From the NCBI GenBank assembly GCA_036172245.1, contig JAYWIR010000004.1, positions 2,170,001 to 2,234,000 on the forward strand: a stretch of 64,000 nucleotides of DNA, given 5' to 3'. This DNA comes from Raillietiella orientalis. Lineage: Eukaryota. This document shows, piece by piece, positions 20,162-52,999 of the stretch. The position numbers were made by a program, and so were the translations under genes. The notes beneath the pieces were generated by a model. The model was not told the DNA's origin. It searched no databases and worked only from the letters and a program-made list of their open reading frames with translations. Each line of letters opens with the position of its first letter. The stretch's first letter is position 1.

Positions 20162-22376
20162 ATGGTAAGTTGCATTTAGCTCCTGTGTTTGTACGCGTGT
20201 TTGCTGTGTTATCCAGATTACATGTTTATGTTTAATTCAATTAAATTTCATGTTTTTAAGGATCATTCTGGTGAACGCTATTCGTTTATAGTTGAATGGT
20301 TTGATAAGCAATCTCAGCTGCATAGAAGCTTCCTGCTAAATTTTTTTTCTAATGATGGAACTGTAGAAATGGCAAGTATTTCTCTTACGTAATGTTATGT
20401 GTGTACAAGAATTTATTTGGAATTTCAATTTCAGTACGATATAAAAAATCGGAAAATATTTCTTAAGCGCTCAAATGTTGGGGCTATGCAACTTAATAAT
20501 TTTTATGTTGGTAATACAATAACTGTACTCACCAGAAAATTGTTAATTAAAGATTTTGCTGATGAAACAACAAAACAAACATTACAAGTAGACATGGAAA
20601 GGTTATACATAATGTTGACTAGTAAATGCTTGGAGAAATTTTAGCAAGAAAATTTTAAACTTTATGTTTGTATATTTAAATGTATAAAGTCTTTTTTGAT
20701 CCATAGTAACAGGCAGCCTTATTTGCATATTTTATTATAGAATCCTTGTATTAATAAAACCAAATGGGCTGAAGCATTTTGGATATGTTTTGCAATTAAT
20801 CCAGCACCTCGATTTAAAAGTTTGCAGAGCAAGAATGATAAAATTAACAGAGTTGGCTATCAAAGAGCTTTATCAAGATGAAGTAAACTCATGTGAGTTA
20901 AAGTGAGTTTTACCATATAGTAGTGCAACGTTATAAGATTGTCTTTAACTTAGAGAAAATTCCGTAATAACTTTGGAGATCTTGGGGAAAAACTCCATCA
21001 GTAAACTGAAAAATCTTTCTGTATCACTGGAAGAAAATGCAGCTGAAATTCCCCTTACACTGAGACCACCTCCTTTGTTGAATTCTCTTAGTGATGCGCT
21101 GTCTTTTTCTTTGGATATTCAGCATGCGCAAAAGGCATGATAGTAGTTTCCTTTTTTATTGGTAACTTGAAAATTTATAGGAATTGGATGTCTTTTTTGG
21201 AAAACACCAGGAAAAAGATTTTTTTCTTGATACTGCAACTTTTGAGAACTGTACTTGTTGCATCATTAAACCAGATGCGATTAGAAGAGGTGAAAAATAA
21301 CAGCTTATGTAATTAAATATTTCTGCTAATTTCAGGATTGGCTGGAAATATAATTAGGAAAATTCAAGATGAAGGATTTGAAATTACAGCTTTGAAGCTT
21401 GTTAATCTTGATAAGGAATGTGCAGAATGTTTTATGGAAGTTTACAAAACTTTGTTACCACATTATCTTGTAAGTTTACATGCATTAAAGTAATAAAGTG
21501 TTATGTGTTTTCTTCTTTCCTTTACCCCTGTCAACTTTCATTTGTATACTTGAAACTTAGGCATTTGTGTCAACATTACCAGACTATTCGAAAATATCGA
21601 AAATTCTGGTTTGTACATCAATTTTGCATTTACTAGAATCTACAAAATTGTGCTATTTGTTGTTCATTGTGTGCTCTGGTGTATAGGGCAACAATTTTCC
21701 ATTAAAACACAAATAATAAATTGGAAAAGACACATTTCTGTTTTGTCAAATCTCTAGTCTGTAGTGGTTTATGGAAGCTTTTACTAATGATTTTTGTCTG
21801 CTGCAGTTTTTTTGGAAATCAGTATGCTTGCATGGCAATTTATTGAAAAAGGAACAAGTTTTAATTTTGCAAGTGAATTTTCAAAATGAAGCAATTTGAA
21901 AGAGAAATGTTTCATTTGCTATTTTGAAGTCGGAAAATTTAGATAAAGCAAATTAAATTTGTTCAAGCTTTCATTCAAACAGGAAGCATATTAGATTATG
22001 ATTCCTTGAAACAGTTCATTGCTTGAGAAGAGTTTATTAGCTAATCAATTAATCATTTAAATCTTTACAAGGGGTTGATCAATGAACTGTCATCAGGACC
22101 CTGTTTTGTGGCAGAAATAGTTGACACTGTTAATGCATCAGATACAGTAAAGAAATTTAGAGAGCTGGTTGGTCCTCATGATTGGGTAATTCCTTTTCCT
22201 TTTTGGATTGTGCATTAATTCTTTTTTAGGAATTGGCATCTATTTTACGACCTCACTCCCTGAGGGCACAGTTTGGGATCAACAGTGTTGAAAATGCTGT
22301 GCACTGTTCTGATTTGCCTGAAGATGGTCCTCTGGACAGTCAGTTTTTCTTTAAGATGTGTGCTGTAAATGAATAG
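20162..22376 (+). CDS. NME7: NME7 (DM10 domain + two NDK domains), ~375 aa, 9 coding exons
   Basis: Exons 20162-20164 (ATG only; another in-frame ATG at 20156), 20261-20371, 20435-20601, 20741-20902, 20954-21134, 21181-21289, 21336-21469, 22072-22185, 22230-22376 (1128 nt). DM10 motif RYSFIVEWFD...DGTVEMYDIKNRKIFLKR; NDK-B motifs CTCCIIKPD, SSGP, SLRAQFG, NAVHCSDLPEDG. Two introns require GC donors. Confidence 0.93.
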
Positions 22377-22434
22377 CCCCAAAGCACTTTCCTGTTCTTT
22401 TATTTGTTATCTTAATTTCATTTCCAATATGTTA

Positions 22435-25400
22435 TTAAAATAATCTAGGAAAACTTCTGGACCTTTTTAGCTGTTCAGTGGGAACCACGTCATTGGCACA
22501 GTCCCACCACACATCTTTTGTGTTCTCAGATCTTTTATCAGTTTTATAATTGTTTCATGAAATAAATTCTGAATTACCTGATTTTTCGTAATTTATCATG
22601 TTGGTCTTGGTTTCTATATTGTTCTCGTGATTTAAGACTGCCTCTTGGAGGCAACCATGCTACATACGACTTTTCATAGACAGTGGAATGATGGTTAGAG
22701 TTTTTTGATTTCTTCAACAATGCCATTCCTAAAGGTAAGTGAAGATCATAACCTAACACCAAACCCAACACCAAACCCAAGATGATAAATATAAACACTG
22801 TTGCTATTATTGGAGCAGGCAGTGCCAAATACCAGGGAAAACTTGCTGTATACAAAGAAAGATAATAAAAGTAATAACGTATTTCACCTACAAGTGAATT
22901 TTTCAATGAATGTCCCAAAGAAAACTCCCAAAGTCCCTCCTAATGAGCCCTTGAAAACTGGAAAAAGCTGAGAGATGGTCTTTGAAAAAGCTTCTGAGGG
23001 GTTTGCTTCAAAGAGCGGATCAACAGAGATCCGTTCAAAATATTCTTCACATTCATCTTTATCTAAAAATGAAAATATATAATCTTTACATGCTGAAATG
23101 CAGCGCCTCCTAAGAAACTTCTGGAAATTGTTATGCACAAATATCTCATAACTGAGGAAATCACTTACAGTAAGTAACATATTTAAGAAATCTTTTGCAG
23201 CACTTGCAATGAAGATAGTGTCAGTCTTACAAAGAATTCCATAAACAATTAAACTACACAGTCAATTGTCACATTACAATGCAATAAATATTTCGGTTTA
23301 TTAAAAAAAAAATAAAAAAAACCTCAAATTTCGTGTAACCATTCCCAAGAATAGAGGCATCACTGTGATTTCATTGTTGCTGGCATGACTGCCACATAAA
23401 GAATTGATTCCATTAGTCAAAATAGGTCATTTCATGTTAAGAAAATCTCTTTATGCTCAACTTAAGGATGCCACTCGGTTTCTTTAAACTTGTACTTTCA
23501 TTATGATTCTTTACTTAGAGCTTATGGCTCTTGTATGCTTATGTGTCTTTGAATAGCTTTCAAGAGTTCAATCTCTTCATGTCAATAAAGCAAGATATGG
23601 ACAATACATAAGGAAAAGTAAATCTATGAACACAACAAAATAAATGAGAAATAAGATGTATTACTTGAATAAACAACAGGAGATTCTCAACATGAAGGAC
23701 TCAAAAAACATAGAACTTAGACTAGGCTCAACTCATGCTATACTTTGAGGGATACAGCTGCATTTTCCAACTTTAGAAAATCAGTAAGTCAGGCCATTCC
23801 AGCTACTTTGCAAATTGGAAAATTGGGTAAGCAATTAAAATGTTCAAAATGATTAATGGTTTCATTTTGTGTGCTGGTTTCAGACACCTCAGATATGCTT
23901 ATTAACAAAATCCAAAGCTGTGTTAGTTTTAAAAATGAGAAATTAAAAAGGAATTTTCTATTTATACATAGTTGAGAAGACAGAAACATGGAATCTTTGC
24001 TAACCTAAGAGAGGGCACTGTTTGTAAATTTCTAAAAGGTGTTTTCCTTTTTCTAATTACATTTATGCAAAATTCAAAAAATGTCAATCAATTCTGATAA
24101 CGCAAATACTAATAATTAGCAAGTCTACAATTACACTCAGCTTATGAAATGCTTATGCTACTTTCTAAGTTCAAAGATCTTTGGAGGAAGCTCTGAAGTT
24201 AAAAACTTTTTACTGTTTCTATGAAACCACAAAATACTGTCCCAGATATTGAAAATGCAAAACTACTTACATGAAAAGGCAGAATACATAAAATGCTTAA
24301 TTTTCTGAAATGAACTCATTTCAGAAAATCGACATGAAGAAGGAATACCTTCAGCATATTTCAAGGTTTCAGCTTGTTTCTTTGATCTTGCAACCTGTTA
24401 AGGAGTCATCAACTACTATGTTATGTTTATAAAAATAATCCTAACACAATAAATATTGTATTAAGAGTACTTCTATTAATCAAAATTTACTTCATTCGAA
24501 GATCGAAATAATAATGTACTCACTGAATAAATATAAAACCAGTTGAAGATGAATGATACCAAAAATATTAAAAACAGACCAACAAAAACTAAATCTTTAA
24601 TGTTACGACATTTGCAAATGATTTGTCTGATTAACAGATATCCACAAATTAATGTGGAAGGAAGCCATGATTTCTGGAACAGAATAAATCTTTAAACATC
24701 CAAGAATCGTTGCATACAAAAGATACCAAAATTCATTCTAGCATAACTATTCTAACATATACTCACAAAACTATTTGCTTACCTGCACAATATACAAAAA
24801 GACATCTAATGCTGAACTGAAAGAACTTTCAGCAGACCAATCTTTGTATTCATGAAATATGTAAGAAAGTATAACTTCAATATCATGTACATGTACTGCA
24901 TTTCCATAAATAAAGCTCTTCAGTTTTAATAGATCTTCTGAGGAAATTTCAGCAAATACTGGAACAACAATCGTATCACCGTTTCCTGAGTCCTGATTTA
25001 ATTTTAAACACTATCTTGGATTTCTACACCTTTACCGATTCAAAAAGTTGAAGAATACTTGCAACTATTCTTCGAACAATGGGCAATTCTCGATGATCTA
25101 CTATTACATCGGATTCCAGAAACCTTTTTTTGACAGTTTCTTCCAAACTTATGTCATTACAAATACGTTCACAATCACAACTTCTACAATGGAGCAAAAT
25201 GGTTGCAAATCATTTATAGCAATTACAGCATTGCAAATTTGTTTGCAATGACATCAAATTTTAAAAAATCAATAAATCATTTAAATCAATAACTTGATTT
25301 AAATGAACCCAGCACAATTTTTATCATGTCCAAGATAAACAAATGAACATTAAATTCAGACAATAGTGAATAAAGAATTTGTAACATGCCATTAGAGTCT

Positions 25401-26558
25401 CATACATATATCAGAAAAGAATGAAAATGAAAATGCAATGTTGATATTTGGTTAGTACTTTGACTGCAACTTTACTAAATGAACTATAAGATGTAGCAGG
25501 TAAATAGAACATTTGATAAGTTTTTCAGTTTCAACATGCCCACTCTTGATGCCAGTCATGCATGAAATGCACTGCTTGCTTGTATAAAACCAAAATGCAT
25601 CCAGTAAGGATTTAAAGATCATGAACCCTTCGATAAACGGAGAACTAATCAAAGTGTAAGTGATTGTGTAATTAAATTAATAGTCATATGCATACACCAC
25701 AACATTAAGCAGCTAATAGATCTGAAATCTCCATGTGAGTGCTCCATTTCTGAACATGGAATTTATCATTTGTGATTTTGAATCAGTCTATCACGATCTT
25801 AAGTTATATGGCAACTATTTATGAACGATTTAACGAACAAATCTGCAAACCAACTTATATGAAAACTGAATCAAATGTACTTGTTCAAAAATGCAAAGAT
25901 TTTGACTTGGAGTTCCAGAAATCAAACGAGTTCCACTGGCCTATTTGAACTAATGCACCTGGTTCCAATACAAAATCTGATAGATTCAGAGCATATCCCA
26001 CCAATACACATGAACGGTTTGGAGATAAATTACCAAAATTAATGGCAGAAAGAACATGAAACTTATTTTAAACATGTATTAAAATCTAGAAACTGTCCCC
26101 AATCAGCAATAGCTCCATTCCTAATTTCTCAATATGAATGCTAAGCGTTAACCAGGATCATAACAGTTTACACAATCTTTCAACACACGCAATGATGCAA
26201 TGAATACTTATTTACACCCACAAAATATCATCTCGAAACGTACCGTTTAAAATAAACTGATTAGCTTTTTAATATTCTCAAACATCACAAAAGTTGATAC
26301 TAAATGAAAGCTTATAGAATTATGGGCAACTATTGCACAAATTACAAGGCATACATAGACATACAGTTTATCCGGTACACAGACAATTTGTTCTCGTAGT
26401 CCAGGTTTAACCCAACTATTTTGATTGATTGATAAAGCACTTTTTCTGGGCTCGAGACGAACTTCGTCATTCTGGGATTCATAAGAATGTTCCAATAGTT
26501 CACTATCTACAGATATTACACCACCAATAAAGTACACTGCACTTAACCACGATCTCAT
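22435..26558 (-). CDS. CLCC1: Chloride channel CLIC-like protein 1 (CLCC1/MCLC family), ~420-450 aa
   Basis: Exons 26558-26365, 25183-25036, 24992-24783, 24673-24524, 24394-24271, 23062-22892, 22845-22578 and a probable last exon 22531-22435 (if unspliced, stop at 22574); frame is continuous. Hydrophobic N-terminus, then PIVRRIVASIL, VSFIFNWFYIY, YKDECEEYFERISVDPLFEANPSEA and a final TM FPWYLALPAPIIATVFIFIIL, paralleling the CLCC1 motifs PVFRRYLNKIL, SLGWNWMYLY and YKDDPCQKYYELLLVNP. Confidence 0.8.
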
Positions 26559-29285
26559 CGCAGCATTAAGATTTCACACCACTTCAACAATGAAGTCACG
26601 GAGCAAGGAGATAATATCTCATGTAAACAATAATAATCATCTTAAACTATTACTAGAACGGAATGTTGATGCATTACTGCTTGGCAAAGCATTGCACAAA
26701 ACTCGAGTTACTACTGAGGTTACGTTTGCGATGCGGTTCTTTCAAAATGTTGACACAGGCTTACCACTGCTTGGATATCGTTTCAAATCCGACGAATTCG
26801 AGTTTTGCTTTAGAAAATTTAACAGAAGACGAAGGAATAGAATAATCTTATAACTTTATGCACATTGAAGTGATAAAGTTGGAAAAACATTTTCTCCTAT
26901 TCCTACTAGGCATGAAACTTACTGAATAAATTTCGTATCCACATGTATTATTTTCGACTGGAATCATTTGGGATGCATATATTACATAATCAGGCATGTT
27001 CATAAGCTATATGTGCTCACAGTGCACATTCTTCAGAAAACTAAGGGAAAATAATTCAATTTACTCTACATTAACTGGAGACGAGGCTGCTTCACGCGTT
27101 ATGAGTTCAAGATTTAATGCAGCACTCGAAACTCGTTTCAAAATTAAATACGCGAGAACGAAAGTGAACAGTTATTTAACAGTTAAAATTTCCTCAGCAT
27201 CATTGAATGCACAATAAAAAATAATGAAAGCAGTTCAAAAAGTCACTTTTAACATCGAAAAAAAGAGTAGCAAATTTTTTTTTAAAGCCAAAAAAAAGTT
27301 TCAGCATCTGCCATAATTACAAGTGCACCATAGTCTTAAATGTCATCTCCATGAAACACAACAAATCTTCAAATAAATGGAATAGAAAGCATTGTAGAAA
27401 CTCAGATAACTTGTGATGATACTATATATTTGTTGACAGTACATCAGATAGTACGTACATCAGTTTGATTTGTTTGAGAATGAAAATCATTTTTGCAAGG
27501 TTTGCATGGAGACAGATATCACCATAGTTTACTTAGAGAGAACTATGTGTTCCAAAATTGAAACCTAGGGTTCGTTAAAGCGTACAGAATAGCCTTGTAA
27601 AGGGTTTTCTTAATTGTAAAACAGAAATAGCTCTTCTACAAAACTGAAATTGGTCACTGTCCATGGGAATATTAACTTGTGAACCTGTAAGTTAGAGAGC
27701 CATCGGGGCACCGAATATTCAGCACCTCGATGAACATTGTACAGAATTTTCCCGAGGAAGTAATTTTAGGATAATTTGAGCAATTAGGAAAAAAAATTTC
27801 ACGAACACAGTTATTCAAGTTTGTAGTATAATACGTTGGATTTTTCAAATTTCTGGCAAATAAGGAAATATCTTGCAACGGAAAAAGTATACTTATGAAA
27901 ATAAATTACAAAAGCTTTAATGCAAAAACTGTTTCTGGTAAGCCTTCTGGTATATCTATCTGATAAGGCTATGCGTAGGAGACGAATTAAAAAGTTATAC
28001 AACAGCTTTCGTTTGTTATTAATGAATGACAATGGATGTGTAATTAATGTCATTTCTGAATTCCTCACAATTGTCAAAAGTCCATAGCTCAGTAAAAGAT
28101 TTTCAAATGACTGCAAATGAGTTTAATATGATAAACATGGGAAAAACAAGGAAAAAATTTGGCAGCTTCCGATAGAGCAGGAGATGGTTTCACAAAACGC
28201 TGAACTTGACGTATTTTAGTACAATAAAGACACACAAAACACATTAAGCATTAAAAGCAAACGAAATGAACCATGTTTTCAAGGAATATTAAAACTAAAA
28301 TTCCTCTCAAGTTATGATAGGATAGAAGAGAAAGGACTGAAGGTAATGAGAAATAGTACAGTTTCCCAACTTTTAAATTAGAATACATAACACAGGGGGT
28401 AATACAGAAAGTTCTGTTTGAAATAAAAAAAACTATGTTTGAGTCCAAAACATATGATCTCACCATGAAGATGACAAATGTTTTCTGTACGAATAATTCA
28501 TTGGAAATCTCGACACTTCACAAATTTAAGAAAATATCTAACAGTTATGAAAACATATTTTATTTACTAATCAGCACCTTATATCACTTGCAATATGCAG
28601 TTGGTATGTAGTTATTGATTTTCCAACAAAAAAGTTTTTTGGAAAGAAAAAACTTTCAAAAATGTAACGTTTTACATGGACTTGGGCTAAATGGATGATT
28701 ACACTGCAATTTTGCCCCACTTCACTGTTTTTTTGCTGGATGTTTTTAGTCTTTAATCTATTTCTCACTATCTTTGCAAGTATTGAAAATAGAAAACCAT
28801 TCATGATTATGGTGCAGAATAGAACGAAAGAGACCACAAATATTTACGGAAGTATGATGTGAAAATGCCCTGAAGTGATTTATTTCACGTACATCTAGTA
28901 CATTTTTAATATGATTATTTTGTGTTTATTTATTCTAAGGAGAAACAAATGTCTAAATGTAAGCTACCCCGTTTAAATTTCGCTGTATATCAAATGATTC
29001 AAGTCGATGAAGCTGTAAGTGTGATTGCTCTTTTTCCATTTTAAGTCTGGGTTCTTTCAGCATATATCAGTTCCTTCAATTCATTCATTAGGAGAGAGAT
29101 TAGAAAAAAAATTAGGAAAAAATATTTTTACAGTCGAAGTTCGGTGGATTTTGGTTGAAACATAGTGTTAGTTCTTTTGGACAGTTTCGCTACTTTTTTT
29201 TGATCTCATAATTCTTTAAAAGATAAATATGTTGTTCAGTTACTGTCACCACTACTTTTCCTCCTTTGAGTATCAGCATATCAAT

Positions 29286-29346
29286 GATCTCCACTTCCCA
29301 GTGGAGATCGTCATCAAATCGCAATGTTCGTACAGTTCTGTTGCAT
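29286..29346. repeat. Palindromic hairpin plus Wolbachia-repeat-like motif downstream of the pdxH fragment
   Basis: Perfect 10-bp stem gatctccact-tccc-agtggagatc (29286-29309). The adjacent gcaatgttcgtacagt (SQCSYS / NRNVRTV frames) resembles, from memory, the motif accompanying Wolbachia palindromic elements. Confidence 0.55.
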
Positions 29347-29348
29347 GG

Positions 29349-29480
29349 TTAAGGATACAGCTGCTCTATTTCCCAGTTGCTTTCTTCAACAAGGGTGTAT
29401 TTAAATCTGGTATGTCCCCTGTGTTCACCTTCCTGCCAGAATTGAATTGTTTTTGGGATTACGCAGAATCCTCCTGCCAA
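29349..29480 (-). pseudogene. pdxH: Bacterial-type pyridoxamine 5'-phosphate oxidase C-terminal fragment (probable Wolbachia nuclear insertion)
   Basis: Minus-strand translation GGFCVIPKTIQFWQEGEHRGHTRFKYTLVEESNWEIEQLYP* matches the PdxH C-terminal motif (G+..P..IEFWQ...RxHxRxxY...W..E.L.P) and lacks the animal PNPO insert. No upstream pdxH sequence was found. Confidence 0.8.
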
Positions 29481-29581
29481 ACCATGATGTAATAAGCAAT
29501 AATGTTTTGAGTGAGGTGTTTACGATAATCTCAGCTTCGTATTTTGAATCTGTTTAATCAAATATACTAAGATACGCCAAC

Positions 29582-32500
29582 ATGGTAAGATATCTTTTTT
29601 TATTCTAATCATAATCTAATCTTGGTATTTCTGTTTATTTTACCGACAGTGTATGTGATGAAATCCAACTCCAGTATCTTAATTACGTTGATATTGATTT
29701 TTTTTTTTTTTTTGTTTATAGCTTTCTATTAAACTGCAAGCAGCAGATGGACAGAATCAAGACTGCGACGCATCACAAATAGAAAAGTACTTAAGACGAG
29801 GCGATTTCGTAGGGGCTTTGAGTTTCCTAAAGGTATATCTGGAGCTGGTGTGTTTTTATGATCAAATGCATTCGGGTATCCGTGGGTATAGATTGTTCAG
29901 TGAATATGATGAGAATTTGTTTTGAAATTATTCATATTTCAATGTGCAGTTCATTTTTTTAAGGTTTTTTTTTATTTATAGTTCACAGGGAAAAGTAATC
30001 ATAACAATGGAAACAATGCATCCCTATGGCATGCATATCTCTTATTTCATTGCGGAGACTACCAAATGGCCCTGTCTATCTATGAGAAACTTTCTGAAAA
30101 AGATTTTCCCATTATTGAAATCAACAAAGCCTGTTGTTACTTCAGGTTGCAAATGTATGACACCGCAGAAAAGGTAGCACTTTGTTGCCGTTTGTAACAT
30201 TTTAAGTTGTACAAGAGATGTGTTTCATTTTATAGATTTAGCTCAATTCACGAAAGCATGGCTTTCGAACTTATTATGGTAAAAAATGAAGATTCAATTA
30301 GAAACTTATGTTTAATGAAAGTGATCACTATATAGTGACTGCATGCACTTGTAATGCATATGTTGCATTGAATGTGTTCTAGGTTGCAGAAGAAAGCAGT
30401 AACTCTGACTTAAGAGTGAGACTGTTATGTCATAGTTCTCTGAAACTGCATAATGAGAGTAAAGTTTTGAAATATCATCATCTTTTAAAAGATTCTATTG
30501 AAAATCAACTAAGCCTAGCTGCTTTACATTATTCAAGATACCACTTTGAAGAAGCCTTAGACATTTATAAAAATATTTTTGTGAACAACAGGTAATTTAT
30601 TTTCAAACGTATCTATAAATGTGTTCATTCAATACACTTGAGTCATTCATTCAATACAATGCATTCATCCATTCATTCAATGCAGAATGACCATAAAGTT
30701 GTGTGCAGTGAGATTATTAAAAAATAGTTTGCATGTTTGCATGTGTGTCTGTTCATTTTGAAATTTGTAATAAGTTGATTAATGAAAGAAATCTTTGTTT
30801 CTCTTTAAGATATATTGCTAAATTGCTTTTATTATAGATTTTGCCGGTTGTGAGTTTTCACTGTAATAAATGCAAGGTCCCTTTTTGCTACTTTTGTCTT
30901 GGCATGTACAAATCATTGGTTGTCACTGCATGGACTTGGAAAGGAAAGTTTGTTGAACAGCTCCAGTTTTCATTTCAAAGTATCTTTGTTCTTTTATTTA
31001 AAGTATTTGCTGTTTTGAAGTATCTTCTGTTTCTATATATCTGTCTCTGCTTATACTCAGTGTATCTTGATTACTAAGATTACTTGCATTTATATCCCTA
31101 CGATTTTATACTTTTTTATGTAATGTTTATGAAATCCTTATCTATTAACTAGTGAAATACCTTTTAGTGTGAAGTAGAAATTGGTATAAATATATCATTT
31201 AAATACACCATCAGTATACAAATAAGTGATTTAAAAACATTTAACCCTAATTTAATTAAAATCTATGGGAAGTAGACTTTCATTGAGAGCAATGGAAATT
31301 TCCATGCATATTTATAGTGTACTTATGCTTGTGAATGTTTGAATGTATTTCAAAGTAAAAAACTATCTTTCCGAACTGTAAGAAAAATATTTTAGTTCAT
31401 TTTGTAGATGTTTTCTATTTGAAATGCAAGGTTTTGTCTTTGGAGTAATTTATTCTTGAACACTTGGAAGCCTCATGAAATTTTAATGAACTGTGCTGGT
31501 TATTTGAAAACTACATTTTCTATTTGTGTGATTGCTTGAAAATAGAAAGGCACAAATTCAGCATGTGAGTTAATGAATAGCAGTTCATTGTGTACACATT
31601 TTGTGTACTTGAGCTCATTTATTTATGGTTGTGCAGTACACAGTGAGGAAAACCCCAAAAAATTCATAATTTGATAAAAATTTTGCAAATGGTCATTCTC
31701 AGTAGCATTGACTGCATGTTGAACGATTATTTGGAATAAATACTATTTCAGAATGGATGCTTTATTATATGCTGGGAAAAATTGTATGTTTGATGTCTAT
31801 GCTGAATGACCAGGATCATTTACAAATCTTCCATATAAATGATTAGCAGTAGTAGTTTGTTAAAATTAAAATTAGTTAAAATTAAAATTAAAGTTAAAAT
31901 TAGTAGCTTGTTAAAATTTTCATGCTTCCTGAAAGCAAGTGTTTAGTGTTTTTTTACCATATTTATAAATTTAACTTGCAAAAGTATGCATTATTTTTCA
32001 AAAATATATATCGCCTTCAGTGTTACAATATTGTTGTTTTCAGAAAATTTTCAGCTCTGCAAATTTACATGGCTTTCTGTCATTATAAATTGGGTAATCA
32101 TGATATTAGTCAAGAATTAACAGCAAGTTATCTTCAGATTTATCCTGATTCTATCATAGCAATTAATTTGAAAGCATGCAATCACTTTTGTTTATATAAT
32201 CGAACAGCTGCCATCATGGAGTTAACAGTATTAAAGGTTTTTATGCTTTATTTATATGTTTGATATCTAAACTGCCCTAACTGATGTAAATATTAATGTT
32301 ATATTTATTTAATATGAAAGTGCTCACTCTGATGTGTAAAGACAGTTGTTGTGTAGAAGTTTTTTAGGTAAAGTCATTTGATGTCTAGTTATGTAGCTTA
32401 GCAGTAACGATAAAAGCAGAAATACGTTCTACTTTCAAATTAAGTGAAATGCATTTTGATCAAACGAATGGAACGTATTTTATTTTAAAAATTAGTAAAA

Positions 32501-48576: not shown

Positions 48577-51346
48577 TTAATTAATCTCAATTTTTAAATT
48601 GCGCCTCCCCCAATGGCAATATCTGAAGTTTAGCAGTCCTCTTCCACGGCCTTTAGGCCATGGTCTTTGAGGAATACCTGGAACATAATTATCATTCTGA
48701 AAATGAATTCAAACTAACTTACTGAAATTATGTTCTTGTGAGTTATGGTCACATCTTTTTTTTGCAATTACTTCTTCATCTATCACAGTCAGTTCTGGCA
48801 CGAGTTTGATATCAGAAATAGCATCTGTGAAGAAACAAAAACTAAAGAATACCTTAATTCAATTACAAATAAGCTAACTATTTTTCAATATAATAGAAAG
48901 CAACTTGTAAGAAAAACTGACAGGAAAAGTGATTGAATGATTGAACTGACAGGAATAATGATTAATAATGAAAGGAACAATTTTTTAAACCCTTAAGAAA
49001 AAATTATGAACAAAGGAGAAAGAAAAAAATGAGTACAGAAATTGCTACTCAATATGCAATTCGGAAAGCTTACAAAACAACAAAGACAAGCTTGCAGAGG
49101 TTCATTTTAATAACTAAAATCTTGAAAACTCAATTCTAAATACTACACAACAAAATGCTGTCAAATGAAAATTTTTTATTAAATAAATACATGATAAACA
49201 TAAGAGAAAAAATCTCATCTTTATAATACATCCAAGTATCTGGATTAAAAAAAAAAAAAAATCCATGGCATATAAATGTAACAGATGCTTTAAAAAAAGA
49301 ATTCTGCATAATGGAATTTTTGTTTTGGGGAAACGTACTTTAATGATCTTCAAAAATCTTAAGGATGCTCATCAACAACATTTAAGTAATGATGCTGCTG
49401 AAACAAACATCTAAATTAGTTCAACTTATTCCTATTTACTGAGCTGCACATTAGATCATTTCTCCCTTTTTCATCTCTTTTCAATATATCTTAACGATAT
49501 TTATGAGAAAAAATAAATCATGGTGCGGGAAGGTATGGTACAGGTGCTTGGGATATGTGCCATATAACTGTAAAATACACTCGAAGATGCAAAAAAAAAA
49601 TTGATATACTCATCCATGCTGATGTACCTGATATACAGTCTAATAAGTATTTTTCAGGGCAACTATCCAAATGAGTTTGGAAATGATCGCGTATTACATG
49701 ATGCTGAGCATTGAAAGGGCAGATCATATAGTTGGAGTTGAAATTTCTCTGCAACAAAAATTGTTATTTAGCAATAATAAACAAAATACATTTAATTAGT
49801 ATTCCTAATCAGAAATTTCAAATGAAAACTGTTAGTTCCAAAATCTATTAATATATTTATTATTTAACTGAAGTTTTTGGGTTATTCATACAAATACAAT
49901 ACAAAACTGATTAACAGATACAATTAGCTGTAGTATTTAATTTTAAGCAAGCTAACAAACAATTAAGTAATTAAATGTGTCAATTCCACAATAAGGTAAC
50001 TAAAGGCATATAACAATAGGAAAGAAAACTAATCTTTTTAAATCAGTCAATGCTTTATGTTTCTGCAAGTGTTTACAAATTAGAAATGAAAAGTACAATA
50101 ACAAATGCTACACTCAAAAAGGTCATAACTTTAATCTAAGCTAGTTAGTTTTTAATTTGATAATAAATTTCTTAATTAGGCAAAATCTCAACAAATAGAT
50201 AATTAGATGCAACTGATGAAATTCGTTACAATGCATTCACAGTATCATGGTAGTCGTTTAACAACAGCTAGCACCAGAAATAAACCAAAGTAAACAAAAA
50301 ATGTTTGTTTACTACTTATGGTGACATTTATAATTTAAAACTGCATATATCAATACACTCAATTAATTTTTGTCCTTGATATGGCCTTACATACAATGAA
50401 ACCACTTTATAAACATTGTATGCAATGTTTATAAACACTATAGTATCTGTTACTGGCTTCAATACATAAATAAAAACATGCTAATTTTAGAGTACAAATT
50501 TTCTCTTTCTCTCTAGGATATAACATTACACATATGAGATATATTTGAAAGAAATAAACATTAGTGATTTTCAAAAACACAAACTGTCTATAGCATGGCC
50601 AATAACCCACAATAGACAATTTTGTTCTGCCTTATTGCAGTTATTTCACATTCAGAAATGAACGCACATTAGTTTTGTCACTGTTATTCAGATCCAATCC
50701 TTCAATTTTTTCAAACTAATCATGAATCCACCAGTGAAATTCAGTTTGGAATGTAGTTCACTTTGGCATTATTTTTTTTTTTCATGCTGTTTTTATTAAC
50801 AAGAATTCTCAGGCGCCAATTTTTGTATATGAATTACGAAAAATCAGCATTAATTCTATGAAAGAATAAATCAGCCAAATAATTATGTCTTAAACTTGCA
50901 TATGAAGCAGTACGATAACAAATAACATTTTGTTTCTGCATAGTTATGCTCACTCAACTCAGCTAAATGATTAGATCCATTAACTGTCCCTTAACATTAG
51001 CATTTGCATTCCTAGTCTTTTCAAGGTCCATGCACTAATTATTTTAAACCCCCCATATACTTTCTGCCATGCATCATTATGACGCATGCACATGTTCAAC
51101 CTGATAACTGACATGTTATAATCGAATTATTCAATTCTTTCATTACAACTAAATATGGTAATTAATTTGGCAAAAAATTGTTTAGAATGTTTCGTAAAAA
51201 CATTTTCTTGCAACAACCATAAAATGACAAAATTGCCAAAAAATTGTTACCTTTGCACATTTTTGCAAATGCACCGTAAATTTTTCTTGTTTGATAACAT
51301 GGGATGAATTGTAGGGGCAAACAATTTCCTTTTGCGATGAATACAT
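48577..51346 (-). CDS. GTSF1: Gametocyte-specific factor 1-like (two CHHC zf-U11-48K fingers; piRNA cofactor), ~139 aa
   Basis: Exon 51346-51251 (CPYNSSHVIKQEKFTVHLQKC), exon 49748-49628 (CPFNAQHHVIRDHFQTHLDSC), then 48824-48723 and 48677-48577 (PKGRGRG), 420 nt in frame. An alternative terminal exon 49567-49518 is possible. The 3' structure is less certain than the two fingers. Confidence 0.8.
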
Positions 51347-52999
51347 ATTATTCAAAGCATCATAGCGACACTAAACACTTTCGAATCACTTGAACATTCT
51401 TGATAATGACCGTAGTCTTGTACTGAACAAACAAAACGAAAACCTTGAACTTCAACTGAATTTTTGAATACTAAAATAGTCTTGTAAGCTTTTCACACAG
51501 TTTAATTCTCAGAAATGAATCACATGAGATATGGAAACCCCTAAAGTTTACTAATCACTAACATATCAACAAACCGAAGCACAGGAATGTAAACTTAACT
51601 ATGTAATCATCAGTTCCAAATTTATTCCATGTAAATACTTTTAAACTTAAACCTAGCGATTGGTTTTTAAATAATCTACTAAGTTTTAATGAAATGCCGT
51701 TTTAAATACATAAAATGAATTTCAATTATGTTACCTAGGTTACAAAATTTCTGGTTCTTATTGAAGTACTTTTCCCAAAATTAAGAATCGACAAAATCAG
51801 TTTTGTAAAACCAATGCCTGCCATTTTTCTATAACTTTCACAATTTTTTTTCTTTTTTTAATGAAATGAGTATCACTTTTATATAAATTGTACATATTGA
51901 TTATAAATCTGAACAGATTATTATTCACTAAGGTTAGATTATTATTCACTTGTTGATCTGGACGGCTCTTTTGTCTATTATTCATTTGTTACTATCATTT
52001 ATTAACTTAGCAATGTGTAACCGTGCACCACTCACAATCAAACTGAAATCGCAAGCAAAGTTCAAATTTATTTAGTTTATTGGAGGCCAACGTGTGAAAA
52101 CTCAAATTTACTGCTAATTGCACTAATAATGACACTCGTTGGCACGCTCGACATCTGCTCCAAGAACAACATTCAACTCAGTTTCGCAGTGCTAGCACAT
52201 CTTCTTTCACTTGAGTACGGATTTTAAATCCATTTCTCATCTTTTAGTCTGTTTCTTGCAGTATATTTTTTTAAGTTCTCTGCGAAAAATGCAATAATAA
52301 ATAAAAAATCGTTATTAAAATATTTATTGTTTTATTCTATTTTTTTGGTTCCTTATATTTAGAGTCTAGATGGATGGAATAGTAACTTTTTACAGAGAGT
52401 TAATAATAACCAGGATTCTTCTGAAAGAGTTTCTCATCAGAATTAGAGCCGCAAATAATGGTGAAAAAAACAAATTAAAATTGCCTTTTTTAATCAATTA
52501 GACCATGTCCATTCAGTTATGTACAATAAAGATCAGCTCTGTATTATATACAATAACAAAATTGAACTCATAGAATTATGTAGTAGTAATAATACAGGGA
52601 AACCAAAAACAGCATTGCATATCCTCAGAAATACAGAATTTGCCATAATTTCTAAAAGTTCAAAAGTTCCTGTGCATATAAAAACTGCAATTATTCTCAT
52701 GTTGAGATTCAAGTTAAAGCGAACACGTGACAAGTACGTATCATATTGTTGTTCCCTGTTACAGATACCAATAAATTAAAGTCCCATTTACCTACATATA
52801 CGAGAAAAGATTTTTCTGCTCAGACAGAATCAGGAAAACTTTATCAGGAAAATCAGGAAAATTTAGGCGAAAAACATACTATTGGTGGACGATATTCTTT
52901 CAACAAAGGAAAGGGGGAAGAGTTCACTGGAAAAAATGCTGAACAAGGTATTTCATTTTTTGACAAACTCACAACTCAGATTGTACTAAATTTTTCAAG

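What the first reader, a model, noticed from the sequence alone, without database searches (positions are those of the whole stretch)
29240..29584. Probable Wolbachia-to-host DNA transfer sitting in the IFT56 promoter/5' region
Seen: a 41-residue PdxH C-terminus with intact stop on the minus strand, followed by a repeat motif and a perfect 10-bp hairpin. The fragment's 5' edge lies about 100 nt from the TTC26 ATG (29582). Knowledge: animal PNPO has an insert before the terminal W-x-x-E-R-L-x-P, which is absent here; GFCVIPK..FWQEGE.R.HTRF.YTLVEESNWE.EQLYP matches my recollection of Wolbachia PdxH. Inference: a nuclear Wolbachia transfer embedded in clearly host DNA, placed where the proximal promoter or 5'UTR of a cilium gene must lie, so endosymbiont DNA may now contribute to its regulation.
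Basis: partly seen in the sequence, partly recalled or inferred. Interest (0 to 1): 0.78.

Follow-up and report, generated by a model that had tools for sequence, protein, structure and literature searches.

The report
Small Wolbachia DNA fossil beside IFT56
A 177-base piece of Wolbachia DNA (the tail of its vitamin-B6 gene pdxH plus the spacer behind it) sits in an animal chromosome just upstream of a cilium gene; it is a genuine but ordinary, probably inert, endosymbiont-to-host DNA transfer.

Summary
The minus strand at 29352-29474 encodes the last 41 residues of a pyridoxamine-phosphate oxidase, followed by a stop (PF10590, E 7.5e-15). A perfect 10-bp hairpin lies at 29286-29309.

The Wolbachia reading also holds. 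Window 29295-29471 (177 nt) is 86-88% identical in DNA to four Wolbachia-family genomes and 85% over 173 nt to a fifth. The match includes 54 nt of non-coding spacer behind pdxH. In a tree the piece nests in a 99/98-supported clade with the Wolbachia of Mansonella ozzardi and Tettigetta isshikii.

No other PNPO exon and no other Wolbachia DNA is present in the 64 kb. The rest of the window is intron-bearing animal sequence: NME7, IFT56, an Na/Ca exchanger.

The piece has no Met codon, carries changes at conserved residues and sits on a long branch, so it is a decaying fragment, not a gene. One hairpin arm is absent from Wolbachia. I read it as a snap-back repair scar at the junction.

The piece ends 110 nt before the candidate IFT56 ATG. 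Any regulatory role is untested, and an alternative first exon would make it intronic. No reads could be obtained. This is a known kind of event (nuwt), of low to moderate interest.

The parts
29295..29471 (-). Wolbachia-derived segment (177 nt): the 3' end of pdxH plus its downstream spacer
   Evidence: blastn gives 88.1% identity to L012 (G049), 87.6% to L010 (G068) and L007 (G079), and 86.4% to L009 (G082), all ungapped over 177 nt; L014 (G065) is 85% over 173 nt (29299-29471). Alignment A1 shows the same. Beyond both ends identity drops to the background of 21-30%.
29352..29471 (-). 40 codons of the pdxH C-terminus (GFCVIPKTIQFWQEGEHRGHTRFKYTLVEESNWEIEQLYP). The Pfam match also takes in one more Gly codon at 29472-29474.
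   Evidence: PF10590, E 7.5e-15. Identity to the best 30 genomes is 73-88% over 40 aa. Three of the four substitutions found in none of the 34 compared rows are first-position and change the residue: E10Q, R19G, K34E.
29349..29351 (-). Stop codon TAA, at the same position as the stop in Wolbachia pdxH
29295..29348 (-). Non-coding spacer downstream of pdxH, homologous to that of five genomes only
   Evidence: 8 differences in 54 nt to L012, L010, L007 and L009, and 12 to L014. The other strains differ at 35-45 of 54 positions, so they are not homologous there.
29314..29341 (.). 28-nt motif that is dispersed in Wolbachia-family genomes
   Evidence: 93% matches at 6 further sites in G049 and at one further site each in G079, G082 and G068. 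In G049 those sites are the end of a repeat of about 190-360 nt whose copies are 83-97% alike.
29286..29309 (.). Perfect 10-bp hairpin. The arm 29300-29309 and the loop are Wolbachia sequence. The arm 29286-29295 is its inverted copy and is absent from Wolbachia, so I infer it is a junction scar.
29472..29581 (+). 110 nt of host sequence between the segment and the candidate IFT56 start codon
   Evidence: There is no similarity to Wolbachia apart from 9 of 18 matches next to the junction, which is not significant.
29582..29584 (+). Candidate IFT56 ATG (context caacATGg), followed at once by a GTAAGA donor
   Evidence: Read from the sequence. It is in phase with the next exon at 29722-29832. 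It is inferred, not shown.
29722..30592 (+). First recognisable IFT56 coding exons (29722-29832, within 29982-30194, within 30383-30592)
   Evidence: TPR hits. 30383-30592 matches IFT56 chain 8bd7_E residues 121-182, E 4.3e-14.
28949..29014 (+). Alternative candidate first exon: ATG, 22 codons, GTAAGT donor, phase 0. If used, the Wolbachia segment would be intronic.
   Evidence: Read from the sequence. No homology support.

Best explanation
This is a short nuclear Wolbachia transfer (nuwt). A fragment of Wolbachia chromosome was captured in a double-strand break in the germ-line genome of an animal host, probably an arthropod. The fragment holds the last 40 codons of pdxH, its stop codon and about 54 nt of the spacer behind it.

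The donor belonged to the clade that holds the Wolbachia of Mansonella ozzardi and of the cicada Tettigetta isshikii. No sampled strain is the donor itself.

I infer that joining went through error-prone end joining. At the spacer end, the broken 3' end folded back on itself and was extended by 9-10 nt (snap-back synthesis). That produced the perfect 10-bp palindrome before ligation to host DNA.

Since then the piece has drifted. It has no start codon and no upstream exons, and it has lost conserved residues, so it makes no oxidase. By chance it lies in the 5' region of the cilium gene IFT56, 110 nt before the candidate ATG. Most likely it is a passive passenger there.

Shown: the Wolbachia origin, the extent of the segment, its isolation in the window, the host context and the anatomy of the palindrome. 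Inferred: the repair mechanism, germ-line fixation and the lack of function.
For: (1) Origin. DNA identity is 86-88% over 177 ungapped nt in four genomes and 85% over 173 nt in a fifth, including non-coding spacer. Protein identity is 73-88% in the best 30 of the 98 family genomes searched. Named Wolbachia G001 and G002 give 83% and 85%; a lower tier gives 37-50%. An ML tree of 31 rows and 123 nt places the window in a 7-row clade with 99/98 support, together with named wMoz2 and wTis. The spacer carries a 28-nt motif dispersed in those genomes.

(2) Host context. On both sides lie spliced animal genes: NME7 at 20.2-22.4 kb, IFT56 from 29.6 kb, an Ank/SH3 gene, a HAT-repeat splicing factor and an Na/Ca exchanger. 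The nearest Atlas cluster for the exchanger exon is mostly Arthropoda (a lead only).

(3) Isolation. This is the only PNPO-like ORF among 3530. It is also the only Wolbachia-like DNA of note in the 64 kb, searched against 5 genomes.

(4) Decay. The window's end branch is 0.13, against 0.033 or less for five of its six clade mates. Of the 4 coding changes found in none of the 34 rows, 3 are first-position and non-synonymous, and two of these hit the conserved EFWQ and R-x-H positions. The 56-aa ORF holds no Met. An open frame with the stop kept is expected by chance in 32% of simulations with 14 substitutions.

(5) Junction. Homology ends in the hairpin loop, and the outer arm is absent from all five Wolbachia spacers. 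Snap-back, in-cis templated synthesis by polymerase theta and structure-driven SD-MMEJ are described mechanisms (PMC4912351, PMC5728401; search listing and the start of each abstract only).
Against: No sequencing run could be listed and no genome is held for the window. So neither junction is confirmed by reads, and presence in relatives could not be examined.

Of the 14 coding differences to the clade consensus, 7 are synonymous, where random change would give 19%. Much of the 12-13% divergence therefore arose under selection in a living, unsampled donor lineage, and the age of the insertion is poorly bounded.

The snap-back reading rests on a single junction. Small palindromes are about 6 times commoner in this window than in shuffles, so a chance or later origin of the arm is not excluded.

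The host phylum is only a lead.

Two large protein searches did not return Wolbachia PdxH at all; their best true hit was 58% identical. This shows those indexes can miss close relatives. By the same token, closer donors may exist that I did not see.
Confidence: 0.86

Rival explanations
1. The piece has been co-opted. The Wolbachia-derived 177 nt now forms part of the core promoter or 5'UTR of IFT56 and influences its transcription. One possible route is the TATA-like TATTTAAAT at 29398-29406, which a substitution in the window turned from the clade's TATCTAAAT.
For: The segment ends 110 nt before the candidate ATG of a confirmed IFT56 gene. No other recognisable gene lies in the 7 kb upstream on the + strand, so the promoter should be nearby. 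The TATA-like word lies about 180 nt before the ATG and differs from the clade consensus at one base, codon 24 AGA to AAA.
Against: There are no expression or start-site data. The ciliary X-box consensus (recalled motif) has no hit beyond chance near the gene: 184 matches against 182 expected, and none with fewer than 2 mismatches in 28600-29800. TATA-like words are common in DNA of 31-34% G+C. IFT56 must have had a working promoter before the insertion. An alternative first exon at 28949-29014 would make the piece intronic.
Confidence: 0.07
2. It is an assembly artefact or contamination. A read from a co-sequenced Wolbachia was wrongly joined into a host contig.
For: Wolbachia reads are common in arthropod and nematode sequencing projects (PMC9894559, abstract start). 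No reads were available to check the junctions.
Against: The piece is only 177 nt, in the middle of a 64-kb host contig, and there is no other Wolbachia DNA in the window. It is 12% or more divergent from every one of the 98 family genomes searched and sits on a long branch. It carries residue changes that no living pdxH in the set has. One junction bears a palindromic filler. A chimeric join would normally bring a read-length or longer stretch of intact symbiont sequence.
Confidence: 0.04
3. It is the terminal exon or a relic of the host's own PNPO gene, and not bacterial DNA. The possible acceptor tttggcag|GA at 29478/29477 would suit a spliced gene.
For: An AG lies just upstream of the homology on the minus strand. 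Animals have PNPO genes.
Against: DNA identity of 86-88% to Wolbachia extends 54 nt beyond the stop codon. No other PNPO exon exists in the 64 kb. Any upstream exons would have to lie antisense inside IFT56. The PDB matches are bacterial and yeast enzymes, not human PNPO.
Confidence: 0.01

Closest known systems
Nuclear Wolbachia transfers (nuwts) in arthropod and nematode genomes
   Same: Wolbachia chromosomal DNA sits inside host nuclear sequence, fragmentary and degraded, without a start codon. [quoted passage not shown] They have also been used as genomic fossils of past infections (PMC4046930 and bioRxiv 10.1101/2025.03.17.643741, abstract starts).
   Different: This one is very small (177 nt) and solitary in 64 kb, whereas many published cases are kilobases to near-whole genomes. 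It lies 110 nt from the start codon of a conserved cilium gene. One junction preserves a clean 10-bp palindromic filler.
Wolbachia PdxH (pyridoxamine 5'-phosphate oxidase), for example the 210-aa ORF L005:1498-2130
   Same: The last 40 residues are 73-88% identical, the stop is at the same position, and in five genomes the downstream spacer is the same.
   Different: Only about 19% of the protein is present (40 of about 200-221 aa). The FMN-binding N-terminal domain is absent from the whole window. Conserved E (in EFWQ) and R (in R-x-H) are replaced.
Templated (snap-back) insertions at polymerase-theta / SD-MMEJ repair junctions
   Same: A short inverted copy of the sequence next to the break sits exactly at the junction, primed from a 1-nt overlap. 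The mechanism is described in PMC4912351 and PMC5728401 (abstract starts).
   Different: Here it is inferred from a single natural junction of unknown age. No enzyme or intermediate is shown.

Membership tests
Nuclear Wolbachia transfer (nuwt) | The sequence derives from Wolbachia: nucleotide-level homology and nesting inside Wolbachia diversity | tested here: met
   86-88% over 177 nt including non-coding spacer. Clade of 7 rows with 99/98 support that includes named Wolbachia of Mansonella ozzardi and Tettigetta isshikii.
Nuclear Wolbachia transfer (nuwt) | Physically contiguous with host nuclear DNA on both sides | tested here: inconclusive
   Met at the level of the assembly: spliced animal genes lie on both sides and identity is at background beyond both junctions. 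Read support could not be tested because no run was listed and no genome is held.
Nuclear Wolbachia transfer (nuwt) | Not attributable to a co-sequenced living symbiont | tested here: met
   At least 12% DNA divergence from all genomes searched, a long end branch of 0.13, residue changes seen in none of 34 rows, no start codon, and only 177 nt.
Nuclear Wolbachia transfer (nuwt) | Inherited in the host lineage (present in other individuals or sister species) | not testable with these tools
   No eukaryotic genomes or reads were available.
Functional PNPO/PdxH enzyme | N-terminal FMN-binding split-barrel domain (PF01243) together with the C-terminal PF10590 | tested here: not met
   Only profile positions 171-211 of 211 are found. 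The next best ORF among 3530 has E 2.5.
Functional PNPO/PdxH enzyme | A translatable gene with a start codon or spliced upstream exons | tested here: not met
   The 56-aa stop-to-stop ORF holds no Met, and there are no upstream exons.
Domesticated or regulatory LGT | Evidence of transcription or of an effect on the neighbouring gene | not testable with these tools
   No RNA holder was listed. The X-box scan was at chance level.

The most novel reading that the evidence does not exclude
The 177-nt Wolbachia fossil has been exapted as part of the IFT56 core promoter or 5'UTR. A post-transfer substitution created a TATA-like box at 29398-29406, about 180 nt before the ATG, so a conserved cilium-assembly gene is now partly driven from endosymbiont-derived DNA.
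Probability: 0.07. Interest if true: 0.6.

Novelty: new member of a known kind. Interest (0 to 1): 0.27.

Why it matters
The piece records a past or present infection of this host lineage by a Wolbachia of the clade that includes the Mansonella and cicada strains. Fossils like this are used to reconstruct symbiont history.

It also offers one cleanly resolved junction, with a palindromic filler, that shows how bacterial DNA was stitched into an animal chromosome.

Its position next to the IFT56 start makes it a cheap natural test of whether small bacterial inserts near promoters are tolerated or used.

Beyond that it is a routine nuwt. It encodes no enzyme, and nothing here shows a function.

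Tried and rejected
- **Word-index protein search** of the 42-aa piece against longer proteins: no candidate.
- **Representative search** over 1.84 billion proteins: 66 hits. The two best (P0001, P0002) are spurious repeat proteins. The best true PdxH is only 56-58% identical, and Wolbachia PdxH was not returned. The cluster look-up gave no organism names. Negatives from these two searches therefore proved unreliable for this question.
- **Whole-frame read-through translations sent to Pfam**: Replaced by a profile search over all ORFs and ORF-wise Pfam scans.
- **Own genome**: not held.
- **Sequencing runs**: none was listed, and no RNA holder was listed.
- **The genome search with a locus as 'of'**: parameter error, corrected.
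- **The search for related loci**: the 42-aa query was too short. The 56-aa query found only a Lachnospiraceae PdxH at 45%, because the tool needs exact 8-mers.
- **IFT56 exon search for full-length orthologues**, to settle the first exon: none scored. The exon 29722-29925 gave no meaningful PDB match.
- **X-box scan** (motif recalled from memory): 184 hits against 182 expected, so uninformative.
- **Rfam on 27000-31000**: no match at E<=0.1.
- **Earlier findings of this scan**: nothing by place, sequence or words.
- **Weak Wolbachia blastn hits** at 1017-1054 and 52312-52344 (E about 0.002, 33-40 nt): treated as chance in AT-rich DNA and not followed.
- **Extension of homology past 29471**: 9 of 18 matches, then background. 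Not significant.
- **Flanks as copies of a host repeat**: no second copy in the window.
Full report
**What is there**

The minus strand of the window carries a stop-to-stop ORF at 29349-29519 (56 aa, no Met). Its last 41 residues are a full-length match to the Pfam C-terminal dimerisation region of pyridoxine/pyridoxamine 5'-phosphate oxidase (PF10590, profile positions 2-42 of 42, E 7.5e-15). It ends with TAA at the position where PdxH proteins end. Among solved structures the best match is E. coli PdxH at E 7e-6.

Downstream in the gene's sense lies a perfect 10-bp hairpin, with arms at 29286-29295 and 29300-29309 and a 4-nt loop.

**Is it a host gene?**

I built a profile from 14 full-length PdxH proteins returned by the representative search. 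I ran it with all heuristics off over all 3530 six-frame ORFs of 12 aa or more in the window. Only this ORF scores (E 1.8e-17, profile positions 171-211 of 211); the next best has E 2.5. So no FMN-binding domain or other PNPO exon exists in the 64 kb.

Any upstream exons would have to lie antisense inside IFT56. An AG at 29478/29477 could serve as an acceptor, but nothing supports a spliced PNPO gene.

**Where does it come from?**

The two big protein searches were misleading. The word index found nothing. The representative library returned only hits of 58% identity or less, plus two spurious repeat proteins.

I then reached named Wolbachia genomes with a wsp primer, confirmed that they hold pdxH, and searched the 42-aa piece against 98 genomes of that family. 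Of these, 91 matched.
- An upper tier, which includes the two named Wolbachia (G001 at 83%, G002 at 85%), is 53-88% identical over 36-40 aa. The best is G078 at 88%.
- A lower tier is 37-50% identical.

At the DNA level, 29295-29471 aligns without gaps over 177 nt to G049 (88.1%), G068 and G079 (87.6%) and G082 (86.4%). It aligns over 173 nt (29299-29471) to G065 at 85%. The other strains match only the coding 123 nt, at 72-85%.

The extra 50-54 nt is non-coding spacer behind pdxH (alignment A1). Homology in a spacer cannot come from protein-level convergence or from a eukaryotic PNPO.

Inside that spacer, 29314-29341 matches six more sites in G049 at 93%. There it forms the end of a dispersed repeat of about 190-360 nt, which is a further Wolbachia signature.

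A scan with a pattern taken from the window's stop/spacer sequence returned two named records. These are the Wolbachia of Mansonella ozzardi (wMoz2) and of Tettigetta isshikii (wTis).

I built a maximum-likelihood tree of the 123 coding nt from 31 rows. Four duplicate loci of the same genomes were dropped: L004, L005, L007 and L014. The tree places the window in a 7-row clade with 99/98 support, together with those two named strains and G049, G068, G082 and G062.

**Is it in host DNA?**

The rest of the window is animal sequence with introns:
- NME7 exons at 20.2-22.4 kb.
- IFT56 from 29.6 kb. Its TPR exons were seen. The stretch 30383-30592 matches IFT56 chain 8bd7_E, residues 121-182, at E 4.3e-14.
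- An ankyrin/SH3 gene, a HAT-repeat splicing factor, and an Na/Ca exchanger.

The nearest Atlas cluster for the exchanger exon is mostly Arthropoda (a lead only).

I searched the whole window in four pieces against five Wolbachia-family genomes. This gave only the 177-nt segment, plus two chance-level hits of 33-40 nt. Beyond both edges of the segment, identity to Wolbachia falls to the background of 21-30%. The flanks are not repeated elsewhere in the window.

**State of the piece**

It differs from the majority consensus of its five closest relatives at 23 of 177 positions: 14 of 120 coding and 9 of 54 spacer.

Seven of the 14 coding differences are synonymous, where random change would give 19%. 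Much of this divergence therefore arose in a living donor lineage that is not in the collection.

Four coding substitutions are found in none of the 34 compared rows. One is silent; three are first-position replacements (E10Q in the EFWQ motif, R19G in the R-x-H motif, and K34E). The window's end branch is 0.13, against 0.033 or less for five of its six clade mates. Both points fit relaxed constraint after transfer.

An open frame with a retained stop is expected by chance in 32% of simulations with 14 substitutions. The intact 'ORF' is therefore no sign of function. With no Met and no upstream exons, it cannot make an oxidase.

**The hairpin**

In the gene's sense the sequence reads GATCTCCACT-GGGA-AGTGGAGATC. 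The first arm and the loop are Wolbachia spacer; the five spacers read GATCT(T/C)CACTGG(A/G)AA or close variants. The second arm is absent from all of them, and homology stops there.

The simplest reading is as follows. The broken 3' end of the bacterial fragment folded back, paired through its terminal A, and was extended by 9-10 nt before being joined to host DNA. Snap-back, in-cis templated synthesis by polymerase theta and structure-driven SD-MMEJ are described mechanisms (PMC4912351, PMC5728401). I saw only the search listing and the start of each abstract.

This reading is an inference from one junction. Small perfect palindromes occur at about 10 sites in the window, against 1.7 in shuffles. 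This one, however, is the most G+C-rich and sits exactly on the junction.

**Relation to IFT56**

The segment ends 110 nt before caacATGg at 29582-29584. That ATG is followed at once by a GTAAGA donor and is in phase with the exon at 29722-29832. If this is the true start, the segment lies in the proximal promoter or 5'UTR.

A second candidate first exon lies at 28949-29014 (ATG, 22 codons, GTAAGT donor, same phase). It would put the segment in intron 1. I could not decide between the two:
- The search for IFT56 orthologues found nothing.
- The N-terminal exon has no informative PDB match.
- No RNA data were available.

A scan for the ciliary X-box (a recalled consensus) was at chance level, and Rfam found nothing. 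A TATA-like TATTTAAAT at 29398-29406 inside the segment differs by one base from the clade's TATCTAAAT. I record this only as the basis of the boldest reading.

**Verdict**

This is a small, degraded Wolbachia-to-host DNA transfer next to the IFT56 start. Such nuwts are well documented and frequent (PMC4299567, PMC4046930, bioRxiv 10.1101/2025.03.17.643741; abstract starts in the listing). This is therefore a new member of a known kind.

Four things remain open:
- confirmation of the junctions at read level;
- the identity of the host and the distribution of the insert among its relatives;
- the exact IFT56 start site;
- any regulatory effect, which I rate unlikely (about 7%).

Noticed in passing
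window 28949-29014 (+): A short ORF (ATG, 22 codons, then a GTAAGT donor) lies 280 nt upstream of the Wolbachia segment, in phase with the IFT56 exon at 29722. It may be an alternative or true first exon of IFT56, or it may be chance.
   Followed up: partly
window 20180-22373 (+): The NME7 (NDK7) gene: N-terminal PH/DM10-type domain exons at 20180-20641 and NDK-domain exons at 20700-22373. Two cilium genes (NME7 and IFT56) are therefore neighbours on the same strand.
   Followed up: no
window 22400-28900: About 6.5 kb between NME7 and IFT56 has several 70-125-aa ORFs on the minus strand (for example 22577-23261 and 27814-28843) with no Pfam match. There is also a weak SANT/DMAP1-like hint at 25754-25945 (+), E 0.0014. 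The content is unexplained.
   Followed up: no
G049:C1, six sites (L040-L045): A dispersed repeat of about 190-360 nt, with copies 83-97% alike, in a Wolbachia-family genome. Its terminal 28 nt also occurs alone in the spacer behind pdxH. It may be a MITE or an IS end.
   Followed up: partly
Both large protein searches failed to return any Wolbachia PdxH for a query that is 73-88% identical to it over 40 aa. Short-fragment negatives from those indexes should not be trusted.
   Followed up: yes
window 29295-29471: The segment has 43% G+C, higher than both its Wolbachia relatives (37-40%) and the surrounding host DNA (31-34%). 8 of the 12 window-specific changes are A>G or T>C in the gene's sense. 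The numbers are small and the pattern is unexplained.
   Followed up: partly
window 49521-49763 (-): A CHHC zinc finger of the U11-48K type (PF05253, E 4e-6). It may be a GTSF1/TRM13/U11-48K-like gene.
   Followed up: no
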